From the IMG/VR virus record IMGVR_UViG_3300032285_000709, positions 1 to 64,000 of that record: 64,000 nucleotides of DNA; one strand, 5' to 3'. The stretch's first letter is position 1. Every line of letters starts with the position of its first letter. The DNA is from a virus. Below are positions 1 to 43,300 of this stretch, piece by piece. The position numbers and the translations under genes were made by a program. Under the pieces are notes generated by a model, which was not told the origin of the DNA, ran no database searches, and saw only the letters and a list, made by a program, of their open reading frames with translations.

Positions 1-119
1 CAGCAAACAATTTTTCGCTTGCAACGCGAGAGGTTACAGGTTCGAATCCTGTTTTACGATCAAGCCTAAAAAGCAGTCGTGAATAGCACAATTGGTAGTG
101 CGCTATAAAATGTATCCTG
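1..119 (+). ncRNA. CAGCAA-stem RNA element 1 (5' truncated), enclosing a circularly permuted tRNA-Cys(GCA)-like sequence
   Basis: CAGCAA 1-6; anticodon arm 14-30 (GCA at 21-23); T arm 36-52; acceptor 3' strand 53-59; acceptor 5' strand 77-83; D arm 86-101; closing TGTATCCTG 111-119 resembles elements 2 and 3. Confidence 0.75.
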
Positions 120-135
120 TTTTATCCAAAATGTA

Positions 136-164
136 TTGACACAAGTCATTGTTTCATATACAAT
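136..164 (+). promoter_or_regulatory. sigma70-type promoter
   Basis: TTGACA-17 nt-TACAAT. Confidence 0.75.
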
Positions 165-195: not shown

Positions 196-304
196 TAGGA
201 TCGGTTCAGCAATTTACTATACTTGAAGGTCGGACCGCTCTTCGGAGCACCTCGACGAACTGGTTTGGAGATCCAGTCTAATCAAATCGACAACAACGAT
301 CCTG
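196..304 (+). ncRNA. CAGCAA-stem RNA element 2
   Basis: TAGGATCG-GTTCAGCAA ... CGATCCTG terminal stem; internal GCTC-TTCG-GAGC and ACTGG/CCAGT hairpins. Confidence 0.65.
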
Positions 305-316
305 TTTGAATTTATA

Positions 317-377
317 TAGGTTAAGTTCAGCAATCAATTTTCACGCATATCGAAAACCGCCGTAAGGCATTAACCTG
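317..377 (+). ncRNA. CAGCAA-stem RNA element 3
   Basis: TAGGTTAA-GTTCAGCAA ... TTAACCTG terminal stem; GCC-GTAA-GGC GNRA hairpin; abuts the RBS of the next gene. Confidence 0.65.
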
Positions 378-389
378 AAAGGACACAAA

Positions 390-1793
390 ATGTCAACATT
401 CGTAGAAGCAATCGCAAATCAAGAAGCCCGTACTGCCAATGGCATGAAGGCACGTAAGTCAACAGCTAACAAGGTTGTTGATCTGTTTTACAATATCGGT
501 GCAAGCCGTGGCAAGGATATCGTACCTGCATTCGTAGGTGCGTACACTGAAGACCGCGAACTTGCACTTCGTATCGCACTATGGGCACGTGATGCTCGTG
601 GTGGCGCAGGTGAACGTGAATTGTTCCGTTCAATCCTGAAGCACTTAGAAAAGACCGACATCGATGCGGCCTTTGCTCTGCTTCGTAAGATTCCAGAGCT
701 AGGTCGTTGGGATGACATCTTTGTCTTCACAACTCCAGAGTTGAAGAAGGCCGCATACACAATGCTAGGTGACGCACTTCGTGCTCAAAATGGCTTGGCG
801 GCTAAGTGGACTCCACGTAAGGGTGAAGTAGCACGTGAAATCCGTGAGTTCTTCGGTATGAGCCCAAAGTTCTACCGTAAGAGTTTGGTGGCGTTGACCA
901 AGGTTGTTGAAACACAAATGTGTGCCAAGGACTGGGATAACATCAACTTTAGCCATGTACCATCTGTAGCGGCCAGCCGTTACAAGAAGGCATTCCATCG
1001 TAACACTACAAAGTTCGCTGAGTATGTTGCGAGCCTGGTTAAGGGAGATCCAACTGTAAAGGTAAACGCTTCGGCAATTTACCCTTACGATGTCTTGAAG
1101 GGAGTGAACTACCGTTCATTCGACAAGACAGAAACTGACCACATTGTGGCGCAATGGGAAGCCTTGCCAAACTATGTGGGTAGCGCCAACATCCTACCAA
1201 TGGTAGACGTGAGTGGTTCTATGAGCTGTCCAGCCGGCAAGAACACTTCGGTGACTTGCATGGACGTTGCAGTTTCACTAGGTTTGTACCTAGCAGACAA
1301 GAACACTGGTAAGTTCAAGGATACGTTCTTGACTTTCAGTGACAAGTCTGAACTTGTTACTCTAAAGGGTAACGTAGTTCAAAAGATGGCCCAAATGGTT
1401 AAGTCTGATTGGGACATGAGTACAAACCTACATGCCGCTTTCAACAAGATTCTTGATGTGGCGGTTAAGAATGAAGTGCCTCAAGCAGAAATGCCAGAAA
1501 TGGTTTTGATCTTGAGTGACATGCAATTCAACCAATGCGTTCGTCACGACGACAGCGCGATGGAAATGATCGAACGCAAGTATGCGGCCGCAGGTTACTC
1601 TGTGCCACAAGTTGTGTTCTGGAACTTGAACAGTTCTGACAATGTGCCTGTAAAGGCAGACAAGTCAGGTGCCGCTCTAGTATCTGGGTTCAGCCCAGCT
1701 ATCATGAAGGCCTTGCTTGCCGCAGACATGAGCGAGTTCACACCAGAAGGGATCATGTTAAAGACTGTAATGAGCGATCGTTACAGCTTCTAA
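390..1793 (+). CDS. DUF2828-type TROVE/Ro-like helical protein with C-terminal VWA domain
   Basis: RDARGGAGER, GRWDD and AAKWTPR family motifs; MIDAS DVSGSM and ILSDMQF. Confidence 0.8.
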   Translation: MSTFVEAIANQEARTANGMKARKSTANKVVDLFYNIGASRGKDIVPAFVGAYTEDRELALRIALWARDARGGAGERELFRSILKHLEKTDIDAAFALLRKIPELGRWDDIFVFTTPELKKAAYTMLGDALRAQNGLAAKWTPRKGEVAREIREFFGMSPKFYRKSLVALTKVVETQMCAKDWDNINFSHVPSVAASRYKKAFHRNTTKFAEYVASLVKGDPTVKVNASAIYPYDVLKGVNYRSFDKTETDHIVAQWEALPNYVGSANILPMVDVSGSMSCPAGKNTSVTCMDVAVSLGLYLADKNTGKFKDTFLTFSDKSELVTLKGNVVQKMAQMVKSDWDMSTNLHAAFNKILDVAVKNEVPQAEMPEMVLILSDMQFNQCVRHDDSAMEMIERKYAAAGYSVPQVVFWNLNSSDNVPVKADKSGAALVSGFSPAIMKALLAADMSEFTPEGIMLKTVMSDRYSF

Positions 1794-2356: not shown

Positions 2357-2938
2357 ATGTCAAACGTATTTGTAACAAGTGATACACACTTCGGTCACGC
2401 TGGCGTCTGTGTGTTCACAAAAGACGACGGTTCGAAACTTAGACCATGGACCAGTGCCGACGAAATGGACGAAGACATGGTCGAACGCTGGAACGCTGTA
2501 GTCAGGCCCGAAGACAAGGTATACCATTTAGGTGACGTTGTTATCAACCGTAAGGCCTTAAATGTTTTACGCAGATTAAATGGCCGCAAGGTCTTAATCA
2601 AAGGAAACCATGATATCTTTAAGTTAAGCGACTATGTCGAACACTTTAAGGACATTAGGGCCTATCATGTAATGGACGGTATGATCTTTAGTCATATCCC
2701 AATGCACGTTGAAAGTTTAGCCAGATTTGGTTGCAACGTTCACGGGCATTTACATGCTAACAGAGTAATGCGAGTCAAGCATACAGGTGCTACACCTGAA
2801 ATTGATCCACGTTACTTTAGTGCCTGCGTAGAGCATCATGATTTTGCACCCGTGGCTTTTGAAGATATGGTTGCGCAAATTAAGGCTCAAGGTGGAGAAA
2901 TTAGTTTCCGTAACGGAAATTTTAAAGGAGCAGACTAA
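2357..2938 (+). CDS. calcineurin-like metallophosphoesterase
   Basis: SDTHFGH, HLGD, GNHD, SHIP and HGHLH motifs. Confidence 0.9.
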   Translation: MSNVFVTSDTHFGHAGVCVFTKDDGSKLRPWTSADEMDEDMVERWNAVVRPEDKVYHLGDVVINRKALNVLRRLNGRKVLIKGNHDIFKLSDYVEHFKDIRAYHVMDGMIFSHIPMHVESLARFGCNVHGHLHANRVMRVKHTGATPEIDPRYFSACVEHHDFAPVAFEDMVAQIKAQGGEISFRNGNFKGAD

Positions 2939-3429
2939 TGTGGATACAAAATGTAGCATTAAGTGACATCAAAAAAGGATTCCACATTGACGCAGGCATC
3001 AACAGTATGTTAATTCAAATTGTTGATCCGGCAATGGAGTTTCCTGTTCCTAAGCACGAGTTCAAAGAGACTCACCAATTTGAGTTTCTTGACCTTGAAA
3101 AGGATGACATGCCCGATGCCGAGGAATTTAAAATAACTGATGACCAAGCCAAAGAGCTTGTGCAACTTTTACAACACGCTCACGACAATCGCATGAATGT
3201 CATTGTACATTGTGTGGCAGGCGTTTGTCGTAGCGGTGCTGTATGCGAAGTAGGAGTAATGATGGGATTCGATGACACTGAAGTGTTCCGTAGCCCTAAC
3301 TTGCTCGTAAAGCACAAGATGATGAAAGCCTTGGGTTGGACCTATGACGAGAATGAGCATCACACTATCAACGGTGTGATGCTCGATTCTGGTCTAATTG
3401 TTCCTAAAAATTATGAAGGTGATATTTAA
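2938..3429 (+). CDS. Cys-based (PTP/dual-specificity-like) phosphatase
   Basis: VHCVAGVCRS = HCxxGxxRS loop. Confidence 0.8.
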   Translation: MWIQNVALSDIKKGFHIDAGINSMLIQIVDPAMEFPVPKHEFKETHQFEFLDLEKDDMPDAEEFKITDDQAKELVQLLQHAHDNRMNVIVHCVAGVCRSGAVCEVGVMMGFDDTEVFRSPNLLVKHKMMKALGWTYDENEHHTINGVMLDSGLIVPKNYEGDI

Positions 3430-3890
3430 TGCCTAAGTGTTATCAATTGATTGGAGTGCCTGGTTCTGGCAAAAGTACTTGGATTAAAAATCAAGACTGG
3501 ATGTTAGGGCTAACCGTAGTTTCAACAGATGCTTTTGTAGAGGACTATGCACGGGCTCAAGGTAAGACTTATTCAGAAGTGTTTAAGGATTACATGCCTA
3601 AGGCAGTTGAGCTAATGGCCCAACAAGTAGTATTTGCCCGTGAACATGGGCATACTATTATTTGGGATCAAACCAGTACTACTATCCAAAGTCGCACTCG
3701 TAAGTTTAACATGTTGCCAGACTATGAACACATTGCCATAGTTTTTAGTACTCCACCAATTGAAGAATTAAATAGAAGGTTAGCAAGTCGTCCGGGCAAA
3801 ATTATCCCTCCTGAAGTTGTACAAGGTATGTTGGACAATTTTGAGATGCCTGATGAAACCGAAGGCTTTGCAGAAATATGGCGAGTATAG
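3429..3890 (+). CDS. P-loop kinase, polynucleotide-kinase-like (AAA_33)
   Basis: GVPGSGKST, STD, IIWDQT and RxxxR lid motif. Confidence 0.8.
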   Translation: MPKCYQLIGVPGSGKSTWIKNQDWMLGLTVVSTDAFVEDYARAQGKTYSEVFKDYMPKAVELMAQQVVFAREHGHTIIWDQTSTTIQSRTRKFNMLPDYEHIAIVFSTPPIEELNRRLASRPGKIIPPEVVQGMLDNFEMPDETEGFAEIWRV

Positions 3891-40300: not shown

Positions 40301-43300
40301 AATATTAGTCCAAATGCTATCGGAACTGTTGCTCCAAGTACTACGTTATATTTTGACAGCGTATATCAAGCGGCAAATAAACGTTATGTAGATAGTCAGT
40401 CTCAGATAGCGAAGATGCGTGATGTATCGTTAGTTAATTCAGCTGACGGTGACCTAATGATGTTTGGCAGTAATATTACTGCTTCTAGTTCAACAGTCAC
40501 TCCATTATATAATTCTGCTAGACAAGTTGTTAACGTTGCTAACAGCAGTTCTGTAATTACTAATACTCCATTAACAAGAGGAGGTGGTAGCGACATTACA
40601 ATTAGCCGTAATGGACGTTTCGCTACATTTAAATTAGTAGGTGGCCAAGGATCAACAAATCCAATTACCGATTATCATATTAATTCTGCGGCGGCTATTG
40701 CTCAGAGTAAATTATCATTGCAAGATGCAAAAGCAATATATAATACCGCACCTTTAAGTTTCAATCAGAGTTTATTAGGTGTTGCAACATTTAATAGCAC
40801 TCAGTTTAGTGCAAGTAATGGTTGGGTAAGTATTAATCTTACCAGCAACCTAACTACGCAGAGTTTAATTCCATCACAGAATGGAACATACGATCTTGGT
40901 AGTACAGGTAATAAGTTTGGAAATGTTTACGCTAATACATTGTTTGGTTCCATTGACGCTGGACAAATTGGTGGCACACTAGGCATTGAAAACGGTGGAA
41001 CAGCCGCAGGTACTGCCAGTGGTGCGTTAACTAATATTTTAGCAGGCGCTTCAAACCAACCTTCAGTTGGATTTGTATTGAAAGCCAGTGGTACTGGACA
41101 GTTCTATTGGGCACAAGAATTAGGCGGCGGATTACAAACTGGTACTAAGATTCTTACACAGCGTTTAGGAACTACAGTAGCATCAAACGGTCAAACAGTA
41201 TTCACTGCGCCAACATACAGCATAGGTGCAGGTCAACTTCGCGTTTATGTTAACGGTGTTCGCCAAAGCGTAGATAGAAACGACTATACTGAAACAAGTA
41301 CAACAACCTTTACGTTAGGTACTGGTTTAAACACAGGTGATTATGTTTTAGCTGAAGTTGATGGATACTATTTCTTCCAAGTTAATGCTAACGCAGTTGC
41401 ATATACTGCCAGCTATCCATTAACTGCTAACAACGTACAAGATGCAATTGATCAGTTAAATGCCAACAAGTACGCAAAAACAGGCGGCACAATTACAGGT
41501 GATGTAACTATCGATACTGGTAAGGCATTATATCTAGCGGCCGGTACATCTACTAAGCCTGCCTTAAAATTGATTGCAGGTACAACGTTAACAGCTCCTC
41601 AAGTAGGTGCTATTGAATTTGACGGCACATATTTGTATTATACACAAACTGCTGGTACAACACGCATGGCAGTAGCAAGTCAAACTTATGTAAATGCGCA
41701 AGGTTTCTTGAAGTATGCTGACAATATTACAAGTGCTAATACATCAACATACTCAACATACGCTGTGTATGCACAAAAAGCAGATACATCTACCTACGCG
41801 GCTATCGCTCCATGGAATGGATTAACTGGTACACCTCCAAGCAACACTATATTTGCTAACGGTGCGGCCTACTTAACATCGTCAGGTACAATTGACAATG
41901 CTGTAACAGCCGGAACTGCTAATAATCTTAACAGCGCAAATAGCTACCAAGTTACTCGATTAGGTATTGGCCAAGCATTAGGTGCCGCCTACTTAACTAT
42001 TGCGGCTGGTACTACTGTGCAGTCGGCTATTCAGTTGAACGTGGGCTCAACATTAACCAATGCCGTAGTGGGCGCAGTTGAATGGGACGGTAGTAACCTT
42101 TACTTAACCAGCCAAGGTCCGACACGACATACAGTCGCTTACCAAGACTGGGTTACTGCACAAGGATTCCAAACTGCATCAGGTAACGTACAACAGTCTA
42201 ATTTAGCAACTACAGCTACATACGTTGTTAACGGTGTTTACACTACTGGTAGCTATCCAAACCCAGCGTGGATTACCAGCTACGATGTTTCCAAAGTTAC
42301 AAATGGTGTATCATCTGCATTAACTTATAGCAATCCAACATTCATTAGTGCGTTAGATGCAGGTAAATTAACAAGCGGTACTATTCCAAGTGCTACATTA
42401 GGTAACAGTTCATTATATATCGGTAGTACTCAAGTAGCATTGAATCGTGCAAGTGCTAATTTAAGCCTAGCAGGAATTCCGTCTATCGCAATGCCCGGTT
42501 CAACAAGTGGAACTATCACTTTACAACCTGCGGCGGTTGCTGGCAGTAACACATTAACACTACCTGCACAAACAGGCTCGTTAGCAGTTACTGGAGATAG
42601 CTTCTATATTGGTAGCACACAGGTTGCTAATAATAGAGCAAGTGGCAATTTAGCATTAGCAGGTATTAGCAGTATTACATTGGCAGGTGCAACAAGCGGT
42701 AGTACAGTATTGCAACCTTCTGCAACTGCATCGGGTACATTAACATTACCGGCCGCAACTGGTACACTTGATCTAGTAGGTGCTACATTCTACATTGGTA
42801 CTACCGCTATCACTAATAACCGTAGTAGTGCGGCGCAAGCGTTAACTGGAATTAACAGTATCGACGGTACTGCGGCCAACGTTGCTAATGCCTTAACATT
42901 TAAAAATGATGGAACAGGCGCAGTAGCCGATAGTACATACAACGGCGGAACTGCTAGAAATATATCTTATAACTCAATTGGGGCGGCACCAGTAGGACAA
43001 ACATTCTACATCGGTACTACGCAAGTAGCAATCAACCGTGCAACTGGTTCTTTATCATTAACAGGAGTAAGTATCGACGGTAACGCCGGTACCGTTACAA
43101 ACGGTGTTTACACAAACAGCACATTGTATATTGGTACTACTGCTATTACAATGAACCGTTCAAGTGGCGCACAATCATTGACGGGTATCAACATTGACGG
43201 TAGTGCAGGATCAGCAGGATCAGCAAGTTGGGCAACTAACATCCGTGTTAGCTCAACTGACTATGCAGGTGCTACAGCCGCAACAATAAACACAGTTGCA

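What the first reader, a model, noticed from the sequence alone, without database searches (positions are those of the whole stretch)
1..119. Circularly permuted tRNA-Cys(GCA) with an intact anticodon arm inside a stem element
Seen in sequence: the 3' part of a tRNA comes first. It comprises anticodon arm TTCGC-TTGCAAC-GCGAG (14-30), variable AGGTT, T arm ACAGG-TTCGAAT-CCTGT (36-52), acceptor strand TTTACGA (53-59), T60 and CAA. After a 16-nt linker comes the 5' part: TCGTGAA (77-83), TA, D arm GCAC-AATTGGTA-GTGC (86-101) and G. All 7 acceptor pairs form, one as G-U. Joining ...GTGCGC(T) to (T)CGC gives a perfect CTCGC/GCGAG anticodon stem and a normal-length cloverleaf. Established: GCA and U73 are the CysRS identity elements; permuted tRNA genes are known from some algae and archaea; bacterial YrlA Y RNAs have T-before-D order but replace the anticodon arm with the Ro-binding stem. 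Inference: this is either a phage permuted tRNA matured by cleavage, ligation and reopening, or a new Y-like tRNA mimic that keeps an anticodon, for example as a decoy for anticodon nucleases. U1-A72 is atypical for tRNA-Cys and CCA is not encoded.
Basis: partly seen in the sequence, partly recalled or inferred. Interest (0 to 1): 0.93.

Follow-up and report, generated by a model that had tools for sequence, protein, structure and literature searches.

The report
Phage Y-like RNA: whole-tRNA mimic
The window opens inside a small phage RNA that contains every part of a tRNA, anticodon loop included, in rearranged order with the amino-acid end sealed; it sits on a conserved docking stem and is most likely the partner RNA of the neighbouring Ro60-shaped protein, not a working tRNA.

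Summary
Window 1-123 holds, in order, an anticodon arm, variable loop, T arm, 7-bp acceptor stem closed by a 17-nt loop, and D arm. Re-ordered, ARAGORN calls it tRNA-Cys(GCA).

The contig starts inside the element. Full copies in at least 13 other contigs add only about 14 nt, which form a conserved "handle": a 7-bp closing stem, 3 nt, then CAGCAA.

Covariation in 35 relatives supports all five helices. It places the handle inside the 5' strand of the anticodon stem, between nt 28 and 29.

The loop keeps U33 and A37, but its triplet is swapped (GCA, UCU, UAU and others) on otherwise identical scaffolds. The "U73" is therefore a scaffold feature, not a Cys identity mark. Genuine tRNAs with the same anticodon co-occur in 14 loci.

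The adjacent gene (DUF2828/DUF7788) folds like Ro60, and 49 of 50 homologues carry such handles upstream.

Best reading: a Y-RNA-like tRNA mimic that displays an anticodon. It is related to YrlA but scores below Rfam's threshold and has a different handle.

I found no published description. This scan has already noted the same system in many other phage genomes. Its function is untested; a tRNA decoy or adaptor is my inference.

The parts
1..13 (+). 5' internal loop of the handle, with the invariant CAGCAAA at 1-7. The 5' closing strand (AGGATAC plus 3 nt in relatives) lies off the contig.
   Evidence: Contig edge. Full copies in L082, L086, L090 and others. CAGCAAA is invariant in A1.
14..30 (+). 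Anticodon arm. C16-C18 pair with G26-G28 (tRNA 29-31:39-41). The 7-nt loop UUGCAAC lies at 19-25. A29 and G30 pair either with U15/U14 or, better supported, with U104/C103.
   Evidence: (helix 2: 4 of 5 pairs with changes on both sides).
31..35 (+). Variable loop AGGUU (tRNA 44-48)
36..52 (+). T arm ACAGG-UUCGAAU-CCUGU
   Evidence: helix 3: 100% paired, 3 pairs compensatory.
53..59 (+). Acceptor 3' strand UUUACGA (tRNA 66-72)
   Evidence: helix 4: all 7 pairs show changes on both sides and 100% are paired.
60..76 (+). 17-nt loop that closes the acceptor stem (UCAAGCCUAAAAAGCAG). U-CAA looks like a decayed discriminator plus CCA.
   Evidence: This long loop is shared only with L082 and its copies. 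65 of 88 relatives have 3-6 nt here.
77..83 (+). Acceptor 5' strand UCGUGAA (tRNA 1-7)
84..101 (+). U8 and A9, then D arm GCAC-AAUUGGUA-GUGC
   Evidence: helix 5.
102..104 (+). G26, then C27 and U28, which pair with G30 and A29 to complete the top of the anticodon stem
   Evidence: 68 of 70 cells paired, with five covarying pair types.
105..111 (+). A-rich 3' internal loop of the handle (AUAAAAU)
112..123 (+). 3' closing strand of the handle, GUAUCCU (112-118), then the GUUUU tail
   Evidence: helix 1: 100% paired, 4 pairs compensatory. The closing stem also covaries across other handle RNAs.
136..164 (+). Sigma-70-like promoter TTGACA-17-TACAAT. It separates RNA 1 from RNA 2 and the gene.
   Evidence: 11 of 12 matches. 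Conserved in relatives.
198..306 (+). Second handle RNA (GGATCG-GTT-CAGCAA ... CGATCC-TGTT) with non-tRNA cargo
319..375 (+). Third, small handle in the mRNA leader (GGTTAA-GTT-CAGCAA ... TTAACC-TG). It ends 3 nt before the Shine-Dalgarno AAAGGA.
   Evidence: 44 of 50 distinct homologous upstream regions have a handle ending less than 25 nt before the ATG.
390..1793 (+). Ro60-like protein of 467 aa (Pfam DUF2828 plus DUF7788, PHROG 850 'RNA-binding protein') with a DxSxS MIDAS motif
2357..3890 (+). Conserved downstream genes: phosphoesterase (2357-2938), dual-specificity-type phosphatase (2938-3429), Pnk-like P-loop kinase (3429-3890)

Best explanation
Window 1-123 is the 3' nine-tenths of a phage non-coding RNA of about 138 nt.

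Architecture:
- Its two ends pair into a conserved handle: a 7-bp closing stem, a 5' internal loop with invariant CAGCAA, an A-rich 3' internal loop and a UGUU tail.
- From the handle rises a complete class-I tRNA body.
- The chain enters in the 5' strand of the anticodon stem (after nt 28). It then runs through the anticodon loop, variable loop, T arm and acceptor 3' strand.
- A loop seals the acceptor end. The chain returns through the acceptor 5' strand, D arm and nt 26-28.

Shown here: the architecture, its covariation, the tRNA-like constraints on the loop (U33, A37), the swapping of the anticodon triplet on identical scaffolds, the linkage of handle RNAs to the gene, and the Ro60-like fold of the gene's product.

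Inferred:
- The Ro60-like protein binds the handle, as Ro60 binds the terminal stem of Y RNAs.
- The tRNA body then presents a specific anticodon loop to a tRNA-recognising factor.
- The RNP would thus act as an adaptor or decoy in tRNA damage, repair or defence evasion.
- It would not act as a decoding tRNA.
For: Structure:
- Re-ordered, the sequence is called tRNA-Cys(GCA).
- The core matches YrlA.
- Across 35 relatives, 99.5% of cells are paired and 20 of 28 pairs show changes on both sides. None of 500 shuffles reach this, and slid controls pair 30-47%.
- The nt 27-28 pairing covaries.

Loop:
- There are 16 loop sequences in 35 RNAs, with U33 in 34 and A37 in 34.
- The window and L082 are identical over the 98 nt from the anticodon stem to the handle's 3' strand, except at 4 of the 7 loop bases.

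Not a replacement tRNA:
- Genuine tRNAs with the same anticodon lie in the same locus in 14 loci. In L090, L215 and L171 they are directly adjacent.
- Acceptor caps are 3-6 nt in 65 of 88 RNAs.
- The base after the acceptor strand is the same whatever the anticodon.

Partner protein:
- AlphaFold pLDDT is 88.8. The eight best PDB matches are all Ro60 (9KOP, 2I91, 1YVR, 2NVO, human Ro60; E 1e-8 to 1e-6).
- 49 of 50 distinct upstream regions of homologous genes carry handles.
- 48 of 135 loci found through RNA patterns alone hold the gene within a few kb, always on the RNA's strand.
- The same RNA type lies next to the homologous gene in Mycobacterium phage LilDestine and in the tRNA array of coliphage Bas63.

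Context and precedent:
- The closest relatives carry, at this position, the same handle with only a bare anticodon hairpin.
- Ro60-YrlA and phage phiLo Ro60-Yrl are published precedents (PMC4201824, PMC12135203).
Against: - There is no expression or binding data for this RNA or protein.
- The handle lacks the GNCGAA motif of YrlA, and no experiment links CAGCAA to Ro60-like proteins.
- Rfam YrlA scores only 28-39 bits against a threshold of 69.
- RNA 1 lies upstream of the gene's promoter, and in many phages sits kilobases away in tRNA arrays. The pairing is therefore statistical, not operonic.
- M. smegmatis YrlA is opened by RNase P and receives CCA in vivo (PMC4201824). A sealed acceptor therefore does not by itself exclude charging.
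- The alignment used for pair counts was fitted to the model, and I chose part of the set for having an anticodon hairpin.
Confidence: 0.77

Rival explanations
1. It is a two-piece, chargeable tRNA-like RNA. RNase P cuts 5' of U77 inside the 17-nt loop, and the 3' side is trimmed to U60 and given CCA. The two halves stay together through the acceptor stem and the handle. CysRS charges the product, as was suggested for M. smegmatis YrlA. This could coexist with Ro60-like binding.
For: - The acceptor stem has 7 bp, which is the feature Chen et al. tie to RNase P cleavage of M. smegmatis YrlA. That RNA is cut and receives CCA in vivo (PMC4201824).
- The window's loop is long (17 nt) and starts U-CAA.
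- Seven of 88 relatives have N-CCA at the start of the cap, and the commonest cap is TTCAT.
- GCA and U73 are CysRS identity elements (established knowledge).
Against: - The base in the discriminator position is the same T in scaffold-mates with UCU, UAU, UUG and GCA loops, so acceptor identity does not follow the anticodon.
- Most caps are 3-6 nt without CCA.
- A genuine tRNA-Cys is present in related loci.
- A helix that emerges from the anticodon stem at nt 28/29 would probably clash with the ribosome (inference).
Confidence: 0.12
2. It is a true circularly permuted tRNA-Cys gene. The transcript is circularised or ligated at the handle and reopened at the acceptor end, giving a normal decoding tRNA, as in Cyanidioschyzon merolae.
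For: The re-ordered sequence is a good cloverleaf of normal length. All the tertiary-interaction nucleotides are present.
Against: - There is no bulge-helix-bulge motif at the junction. The junction instead carries a conserved 7-bp stem with 15-nt and 7-nt internal loops, shared with RNAs that hold no tRNA at all.
- Acceptor caps are mostly tetra- or pentaloops.
- Genuine isoacceptors co-occur.
- No RtcB or Rnl2-type ligase was found in the 75-kb contig. This is weak evidence, because the contig is a fragment.
Confidence: 0.03
3. The handle is a processing or stability element of phage tRNA operons, for example a nuclease signal or a protective clamp. It acts independently of the Ro60-like protein, and the linkage only reflects both lying in the tRNA region.
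For: The RNAs abut tRNA 3' ends and sit inside tRNA arrays. RNA 1 is outside the gene's own transcription unit.
Against: - Handles occur upstream of the gene in 49 of 50 distinct regions, including one in its own 5' leader in 44 of 50.
- The pairing holds in phages as distant as mycobacteriophages and Felix O1-like coliphages.
- An invariant CAGCAA in an internal loop suggests a specific binder (inference).
Confidence: 0.07
4. It is debris: a rearranged pseudo-tRNA or an assembly artefact at the contig edge.
For: The element touches the first base of the contig.
Against: The identical arrangement lies inside many independent contigs. Compensatory changes occur in all helices.
Confidence: 0.01

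Closest known systems
YrlA-type Y RNAs bound by bacterial Ro60/Rsr (Rfam RF02553; Chen et al. 2014, PMC4201824)
   Same: - T arm, loop-closed acceptor stem and D arm in T-before-D order.
- The RNA's two ends form the protein-docking stem.
- Encoded beside a Ro60-shaped protein, and often several RNAs per locus.
- The M. smegmatis YrlA also has a 7-bp acceptor stem.
   Different: - YrlA replaces the anticodon arm by the Ro-binding stem. Here a full anticodon stem-loop with U33 and A37 is kept, and the handle branches from its 5' strand.
- The handle motif is CAGCAA, not GNCGAA.
- The score is 28-39 bits against a gathering threshold of 69.
- The protein is Pfam DUF2828/DUF7788, not TROVE.
Deinococcus radiodurans Yrn1 (Chen et al. 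2014)
   Same: A Y RNA that can be drawn with a possible anticodon arm with a 5-bp stem.
   Different: - Yrn1's loop has 6 nt, there is no variable arm, and its D arm is doubtful.
- Its orientation differs.
- It shows no family-wide swapping of the triplet.
Thermus phage phiLo Ro60 with Yrl1/Yrl2 (PMC12135203; PDB 9KOP)
   Same: A phage-encoded Ro60 with phage-encoded partner RNAs upstream of the gene. 9KOP is the best structural match to the window's protein.
   Different: The phiLo RNAs are stem-bulge-stem Y RNAs with a CGAA motif, and no tRNA body is described. Sequence identity to the window's protein is only 17% in the structural alignment.
Coliphage Bas63 gp130 (PhageMaP preprint, PMC11482910)
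   Same: bas63_0130 is a full-length homologue (39% identity; DUF2828 plus DUF7788). The authors note its Ro60-like fold and guess that some neighbouring 'tRNA' genes may be Y RNAs. My model finds a handle-tRNA RNA in that array (L218:5959-6095).
   Different: The paper reports a phenotype: loss of gp130 sensitises the phage to the Ppl defence. It does not describe the RNAs, the handle or the permuted tRNA.
Circularly permuted tRNA genes of Cyanidioschyzon merolae and some other algae and archaea
   Same: The 3' part of the tRNA is encoded before the 5' part, and re-ordering gives a normal cloverleaf.
   Different: - Those are matured through a circular intermediate, using a bulge-helix-bulge junction and the splicing machinery, into working tRNAs.
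- Here the junction is a conserved protein-type handle.
- The acceptor end is usually a tight loop, and normal isoacceptors coexist.

Membership tests
Rfam YrlA (RF02553) | Covariance-model score at or above the gathering threshold (69 bits) | tested here: not met
   The window scores 27.7 bits. Eight relatives score 31-39 bits. In most, only model positions 24-84 (the tRNA-like core) align.
Rfam YrlA (RF02553) | tRNA-like module: T arm, closed acceptor stem and D arm, with T before D | tested here: met
Rfam YrlA (RF02553) | Ro60-binding module with a conserved GNCGAAN0-1G motif in the 5' strand (Chen et al. 2014) | tested here: not met
   The handles of the window and its relatives carry an invariant CAGCAA(A) and no GNCGAA.
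Rfam YrlA (RF02553) | The anticodon arm is replaced by the stem leading to the Ro-binding module | tested here: not met
   A 5-bp stem with a 7-nt loop is retained and covaries.
Y RNA in the wide sense (partner RNA of a Ro60-type protein) | Encoded next to, and co-distributed with, a Ro60-fold protein | tested here: met
   Ro60-like fold. Linkage.
Y RNA in the wide sense (partner RNA of a Ro60-type protein) | Physically bound by that protein through the terminal stem | not testable with these tools
   This needs RIP/CLIP or EMSA. No RNA-protein fold tool is available here.
Functional (permuted) tRNA | Complete cloverleaf with tertiary-interaction nucleotides after re-ordering | tested here: met
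   ARAGORN calls tRNA-Cys(GCA). U8, A14, G18 G19, A21, G46, T54 T55 C56 and A58 are read.
Functional (permuted) tRNA | A free or processable acceptor end whose discriminator fits the anticodon's identity set | tested here: not met
The same T follows the acceptor strand with GCA, UCU, UAU and UUG loops.
Functional (permuted) tRNA | Supplies an anticodon that the genome otherwise lacks | tested here: not met
   A genuine tRNA with the same anticodon lies in the same locus in 14 related loci. The window's own upstream region is missing.
Functional (permuted) tRNA | Bulge-helix-bulge junction for endonuclease and ligase maturation | tested here: not met
   The junction is a 7-bp stem with 15-nt and 7-nt internal loops.
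Handle-tagged RNAs of DUF2828 Ro60-like proteins (family defined here and in earlier notes of this scan; no publication found) | A covarying 6-7-bp closing stem, a 3-nt spacer and CAGCAA on the 5' side; the 3' strand is followed by UG(UU) | tested here: met
   The window has CAGCAA at 1-6 and GTATCCT-GTTTT at 112-123. The 5' closing strand is cut off but present in all full copies.
Ro60 / TROVE proteins (for ORF 390-1793) | HEAT-repeat ring plus vWA domain with a MIDAS DxSxS motif | tested here: met
   Full-length Foldseek matches to Ro60 structures, TM 0.5-0.63. D273, S275 and S277 are invariant in 65 homologues.
Ro60 / TROVE proteins (for ORF 390-1793) | Match to Pfam TROVE (PF05731), or sequence match to solved Ro60 structures | tested here: not met
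   Pfam gives only DUF2828 and DUF7788. phmmer against PDB sequences gives no hit at E up to 1.

The most novel reading that the evidence does not exclude
The handle RNAs are a programmable set of anticodon displays. The Ro60-like protein would hold, through one common handle, interchangeable tRNA bodies or bare anticodon hairpins. Their triplet would decide which tRNA-specific host factor is captured, such as an anticodon nuclease, another tRNA-targeting defence, or a modification or repair enzyme. This would give the phage an anticodon-addressed decoy or repair platform. For this window, the GCA version could additionally be opened by RNase P and charged by CysRS.
Probability: 0.3. Interest if true: 0.9.

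Novelty: new variant of a known kind. Interest (0 to 1): 0.75.

Why it matters
Ro60 and its Y RNAs are conserved from bacteria to humans, yet it remains unknown what the tRNA-like module of bacterial Y RNAs is for.

- This family keeps the one tRNA part that YrlA lacks, the anticodon loop, and varies exactly that part. This points to anticodon-specific recognition as the function.
- The protein family is very large: about 6,200 clusters at 50% identity and 705 cultured-phage records.
- It occurs in tractable phages, including Felix O1, Bas63, mycobacteriophages and Listeria, Staphylococcus and Campylobacter phages.
- In one of them the protein already has a counter-defence phenotype (PMC11482910).
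- The idea is therefore directly testable. It bears on how phages cope with tRNA-targeting immunity and on how tRNA-derived RNAs acquire new roles.
- It also flags annotation errors: these RNAs are unannotated, or are covered by spurious small ORFs or hybrid tRNA calls.

Tried and rejected
- **PDB by sequence.** phmmer of the protein against PDB sequences found nothing. Only the fold search showed the Ro60 likeness.
- **RNA ligases.** Pfam RtcB and RNA_ligase are absent from the 75-kb contig. This says little, because the contig is about 21% of a genome.
- **Exact loop pattern.** An exact pattern including the GCA loop and the variable loop found nothing in viral contigs. Masking the loop found the family.
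- **Single-sequence fold.** The minimum-free-energy fold of 1-130 extends the anticodon hairpin through the variable loop. Covariation does not support this, so I rejected it.
- **ACAATTTT/AAAATGT stem.** This pairing in the window is not kept in L082, L083 or L085, so I read these stretches as internal loops.
- **attP core or tandem-tRNA remnant.** I considered a phage attP core or the remnant of a tandem tRNA deletion. I rejected both because of the conserved handle and the covariation. Tandem tRNA duplication remains a plausible origin (vestigial N-CCA in caps).
- **Copy of the phage's own tRNA arm.** The anticodon-stem sequences differ from those of the genuine tRNAs.
- **Wrap-around of the contig.** The other contig end is unrelated coding sequence, and my covariance model R1 for this RNA family finds nothing there.
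- **DUF2828 in the literature.** A search returned only plant and tardigrade papers.
Full report
**1. What is in the window**

- an anticodon-type hairpin TTCGC-TTGCAAC-GCGAG (14-30)
- a 5-nt variable loop (31-35)
- a canonical T arm (36-52)
- a 7-nt acceptor 3' strand (53-59)
- a 17-nt loop (60-76)
- the complementary acceptor 5' strand (77-83)
- U8 and A9 (84-85)
- a D arm with the GG dinucleotide (86-101)
- G26 (102)

The bases that build the tRNA elbow and core are all in place: U8, A14, G18 G19, A21, A15:U48, G46, T54 T55 C56, A58.

ARAGORN and Rfam at gathering thresholds see nothing here in the native order. A permissive Rfam scan gives YrlA at 29-104 (27.7 bits, E 6e-4) and a 5'-truncated tRNA hit at 1-60.

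**2. The element is cut by the contig edge, and it is real**

The window is the first 64 kb of a linear 74.9-kb viral contig. The other contig end is unrelated coding sequence.

I scanned public contigs with the anticodon stem, variable loop and T arm, masking the seven loop bases. This found 17 stretches:
- Two are ordinary tRNAs that share the arm.
- One has a divergent handle.
- Fourteen have the same rearranged architecture well inside their contigs.

Full copies such as L082:13819-13956 start with UUUUAGGAUAC-UAA before CAGCAA. The window therefore lacks about 14 nt, including the partner of its GUAUCCU (112-118).

**3. The handle**

In nearly every relative, the region upstream of homologues of ORF 390-1793 holds two or three RNAs bracketed by the same element. 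This element is a covarying 6-7-bp stem, three bases and CAGCAA on the 5' side, with the complementary strand followed by UGUU on the 3' side.

- 49 of 50 distinct upstream regions have at least one handle with an exact 6-bp closure.
- 44 of 50 have one ending less than 25 nt before the ATG.
- The window has three: RNA 1 (before base 1 to 123), RNA 2 (198-306) and a small one in the mRNA leader (319-375).
- A strong promoter-like site (136-164) separates RNA 1 from the rest.
- In relatives, RNA 1 directly follows a tRNA, so it belongs to the tRNA transcription unit.

**4. Structure by covariation**

I built a covariance model from 11 close copies and aligned 35 distinct RNAs with it.
- 99.5% of the 966 cells form standard pairs.
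- 20 of 28 pairs show changes on both sides.
- None of 500 shuffles reaches any of the five measures.
- Sliding the partner columns by 1-3 drops pairing to 30-47%.
- The acceptor stem is always 7 bp, and all seven pairs covary.
- The anticodon stem has four of five pairs with compensatory changes.

Two caveats apply. The alignment is fitted to the model, and I chose part of the set for having such a hairpin. However, 28 of 115 unselected handle-plus-T-loop RNAs have a perfect 5-bp stem with a 7-nt loop in the right place. By my own estimate, chance would give about three.

The two bases after G26 pair with the last two bases of the anticodon 3' strand in 68 of 70 cells, using five pair types: CU/AG, AC/GU, UU/AA, GC/GC and CG/CG. 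The local alternative manages 60 of 70 and hardly covaries.

The tRNA body is therefore complete. The handle branches from the 5' strand of the anticodon stem between nt 28 and 29.

**5. The loop is the variable part**

- The 35 RNAs carry 16 loop sequences.
- Position 33 is U in 34, position 37 is A in 34 and position 38 is A in 31.
- The triplet varies: UCU, GCA, UAU, UGA, UAA, GAU, GCU, UUG, GAA and others.
- The window and L082 are identical over the 98 nt from the anticodon stem to the handle's 3' strand, except at 4 of the 7 loop bases.
- L086, L090 and L098 share the window's arm but have a different, compensated acceptor stem with a UUCG cap.
- The nearest relatives by protein (98% identity) have, at the place of RNA 1, the same handle holding only a bare hairpin CUUUU-CUUGAAA-AAAAG.
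- Of 231 distinct short handle RNAs, 152 contain a 5-bp stem with a 7-nt loop. In 124 of these the second loop base is U.

What these RNAs have in common is a displayed anticodon loop.

**6. Why it is not a working tRNA-Cys**

- The loop that closes the acceptor stem is 3-6 nt in 65 of 88 parsed RNAs. Only seven begin N-CCA.
- The base after the acceptor strand is the same T in scaffold-mates with GCA, UCU, UAU and UUG loops. "U73" therefore belongs to the scaffold and does not follow the anticodon.
- Genuine tRNAs with the same anticodon lie in the same locus in 14 loci, sometimes directly adjacent. Their anticodon stems differ from the mimic's.
- The junction has no bulge-helix-bulge motif.

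One caution remains. M. smegmatis YrlA, which also has a 7-bp acceptor stem, is cut by RNase P and receives CCA in vivo (PMC4201824). The window's unusually long loop, beginning U-CAA, could be opened in the same way. I keep that as a rival at about 0.12.

The caps (TTCAT, TCCAT, TCCAA, GCCATTTA, and U-CAA here) look like decayed discriminator-CCA-spacer sequences. This would fit an origin from tandem tRNA genes, which is my inference.

**7. The neighbouring protein**

- ORF 390-1793 matches Pfam DUF2828 and DUF7788 and PHROG 850 'RNA-binding protein'.
- It has no sequence match in the PDB.
- With an alignment of 65 homologues, AlphaFold gives pLDDT 88.8 and pTM 0.87.
- The eight best Foldseek matches are all Ro60: Thermus phage phiLo 9KOP, Xenopus 2I91 and 1YVR, human Ro60 and D. 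radiodurans 2NVO. All are full length, with E from 1e-8 to 1e-6.
- The vWA MIDAS motif DxSxS is invariant.
- The family is very large: 6,212 clusters at 50% identity and 705 cultured-phage records.
- Of 135 loci found only through RNA patterns, 48 hold the gene within the few kilobases fetched, always on the RNA's strand.
- Downstream genes are conserved: a phosphoesterase, a dual-specificity-type phosphatase and a Pnk-like kinase. This resembles RNA end-healing sets, which is my inference.

**8. Cultured phages and the literature**

- The homologue in coliphage Bas63 is bas63_0130, with 39% identity and the same two Pfam domains.
- The PhageMaP preprint reports that loss of gp130 sensitises Bas63 to the Ppl defence. 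It notes the Ro60-like fold and guesses that some neighbouring tRNA genes may be Y RNAs (PMC11482910).
- My model finds a handle-plus-permuted-tRNA RNA in that array, at L218:5959-6095. It lies under two small annotated ORFs on the other strand.
- It finds another RNA 98 nt downstream of the 'Ro-like RNA binding protein' gene of Mycobacterium phage LilDestine, at L217:4029-4161.
- Rfam YrlA does not report either of these.
- It scores the freshwater relatives at only 31-39 bits.

I searched for YrlA, Y RNA, DUF2828, Ro60 with phage, and permuted tRNA with bacteriophage. None of these searches found a description of this handle or of a Y-like RNA with a true anticodon arm. The nearest is the possible 6-nt-loop arm drawn for D. 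radiodurans Yrn1. The library does not hold most subscription-journal papers, so I cannot exclude a published description.

**9. Earlier notes of this scan**

Notes from this scan describe the same protein-handle system, and near-identical permuted-tRNA RNAs with UAU or UCU loops, in many other phage genomes. I re-derived the main points independently. I took from one note the lead to the Bas63 paper, which I then checked.

**10. Verdict**

The best explanation is a Y-RNA-like partner RNA of a Ro60-like phage protein that carries a complete, sealed, permuted tRNA and displays an exchangeable anticodon loop (confidence about 0.77 for this identity).

What it does is not shown. I favour an anticodon-addressed adaptor or decoy role in the contest over tRNAs, at about 0.3. 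It is a new variant of a known kind (Ro60/Y RNA with tRNA mimicry). It is widespread and can be tested in model phages.

Noticed in passing
window 198-306: A second handle RNA (GGATCG-GTT-CAGCAA ... CGATCC-TGTT). Its cargo is not tRNA-like (GC-rich hairpins such as GGTCGGACCGCTCTTCGGAGCACCTCGAC). It is 93% identical in the closest relatives and has no Rfam match.
   Followed up: partly
window 319-389: A small handle in the mRNA leader of the Ro60-like gene. It ends 3 nt before the Shine-Dalgarno sequence. Its inner hairpin has a loop containing CAU (CUCAUAA, like a tRNA-Met loop, in several relatives). A similar handle is present in 44 of 50 distinct homologous upstream regions. It is a candidate operator for autoregulation by the protein.
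   Followed up: partly
L002:2664-2734, L003:1414-1485: The closest relatives (98% protein identity) carry, in place of the window's permuted tRNA, the same handle with only a bare anticodon hairpin CTTTT-CTTGAAA-AAAAG. Homology to the window breaks at window base 107. In L003 a genuine tRNA-Cys(GCA) lies immediately upstream.
   Followed up: yes
L009:2546-2675, L012:963-1092: Another permutation, judged by eye. The order is handle, small hairpin, T arm, closed 7-bp acceptor stem, D arm, then an anticodon arm AAGGC-CTCAAAA-GCCTT. Here the handle seems to enter at the variable region of a tRNA-Leu(CAA)-like body.
   Followed up: partly
loci L002-L216: There are 231 distinct short handle RNAs, and 152 hold a 5-bp stem with a 7-nt loop. 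The commonest loops are CTTTTAA (UUU), CTTCTAA (UCU), CTTGTAA (UGU), CTGTTAA (GUU), CTTGAAA (UGA) and CTGCAAA (GCA). Several occur per phage, scattered among the tRNA genes.
   Followed up: partly
window 2357-3890: A phosphoesterase (PHROG 547, PdeM-like), a dual-specificity-type phosphatase and an AAA_33/Pnk-like kinase follow the Ro60-like gene. In relatives with enough flank they are kept downstream in 39, 37 and 23 of 65 loci, respectively. This may be an RNA end-healing set.
   Followed up: partly
L218:5959-6095 (Escherichia phage JohannRWettstein = Bas63, record 82777-82913): A handle-plus-permuted-tRNA RNA lies in the tRNA array. It overlaps two small annotated hypothetical CDS on the opposite strand (bas63_0137, bas63_0138), which are probably spurious.
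   Followed up: partly
L217:4029-4161 (Mycobacterium phage LilDestine, record 42081-42213): The same RNA type (handle GGACUCC/GGAGUCC, ACAGCAA, loop CUGUUAA) lies in the unannotated gap after gene 55, 'Ro-like RNA binding protein'. Rfam YrlA did not report it at E up to 0.1.
   Followed up: partly
L084:1192-1268: ARAGORN calls a 'tRNA-Arg(tct)' that is a hybrid of the handle and the mimic's anticodon and T arms. Such RNAs can therefore be mis-annotated as tRNAs.
   Followed up: no
window 46-56 and 114-124: The 11-mer ATCCTGTTTTA occurs twice within the RNA: once as the T-arm 3' strand plus the acceptor start, and once as the handle 3' strand plus tail. Scaffold-mates with other acceptor stems share only ATCCTGT, so this is probably partly chance.
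   Followed up: no
L131:6931-7338, L137:307-783: Related phage contigs encode tmRNA-like genes (ARAGORN calls) near their tRNA and handle-RNA arrays.
   Followed up: no
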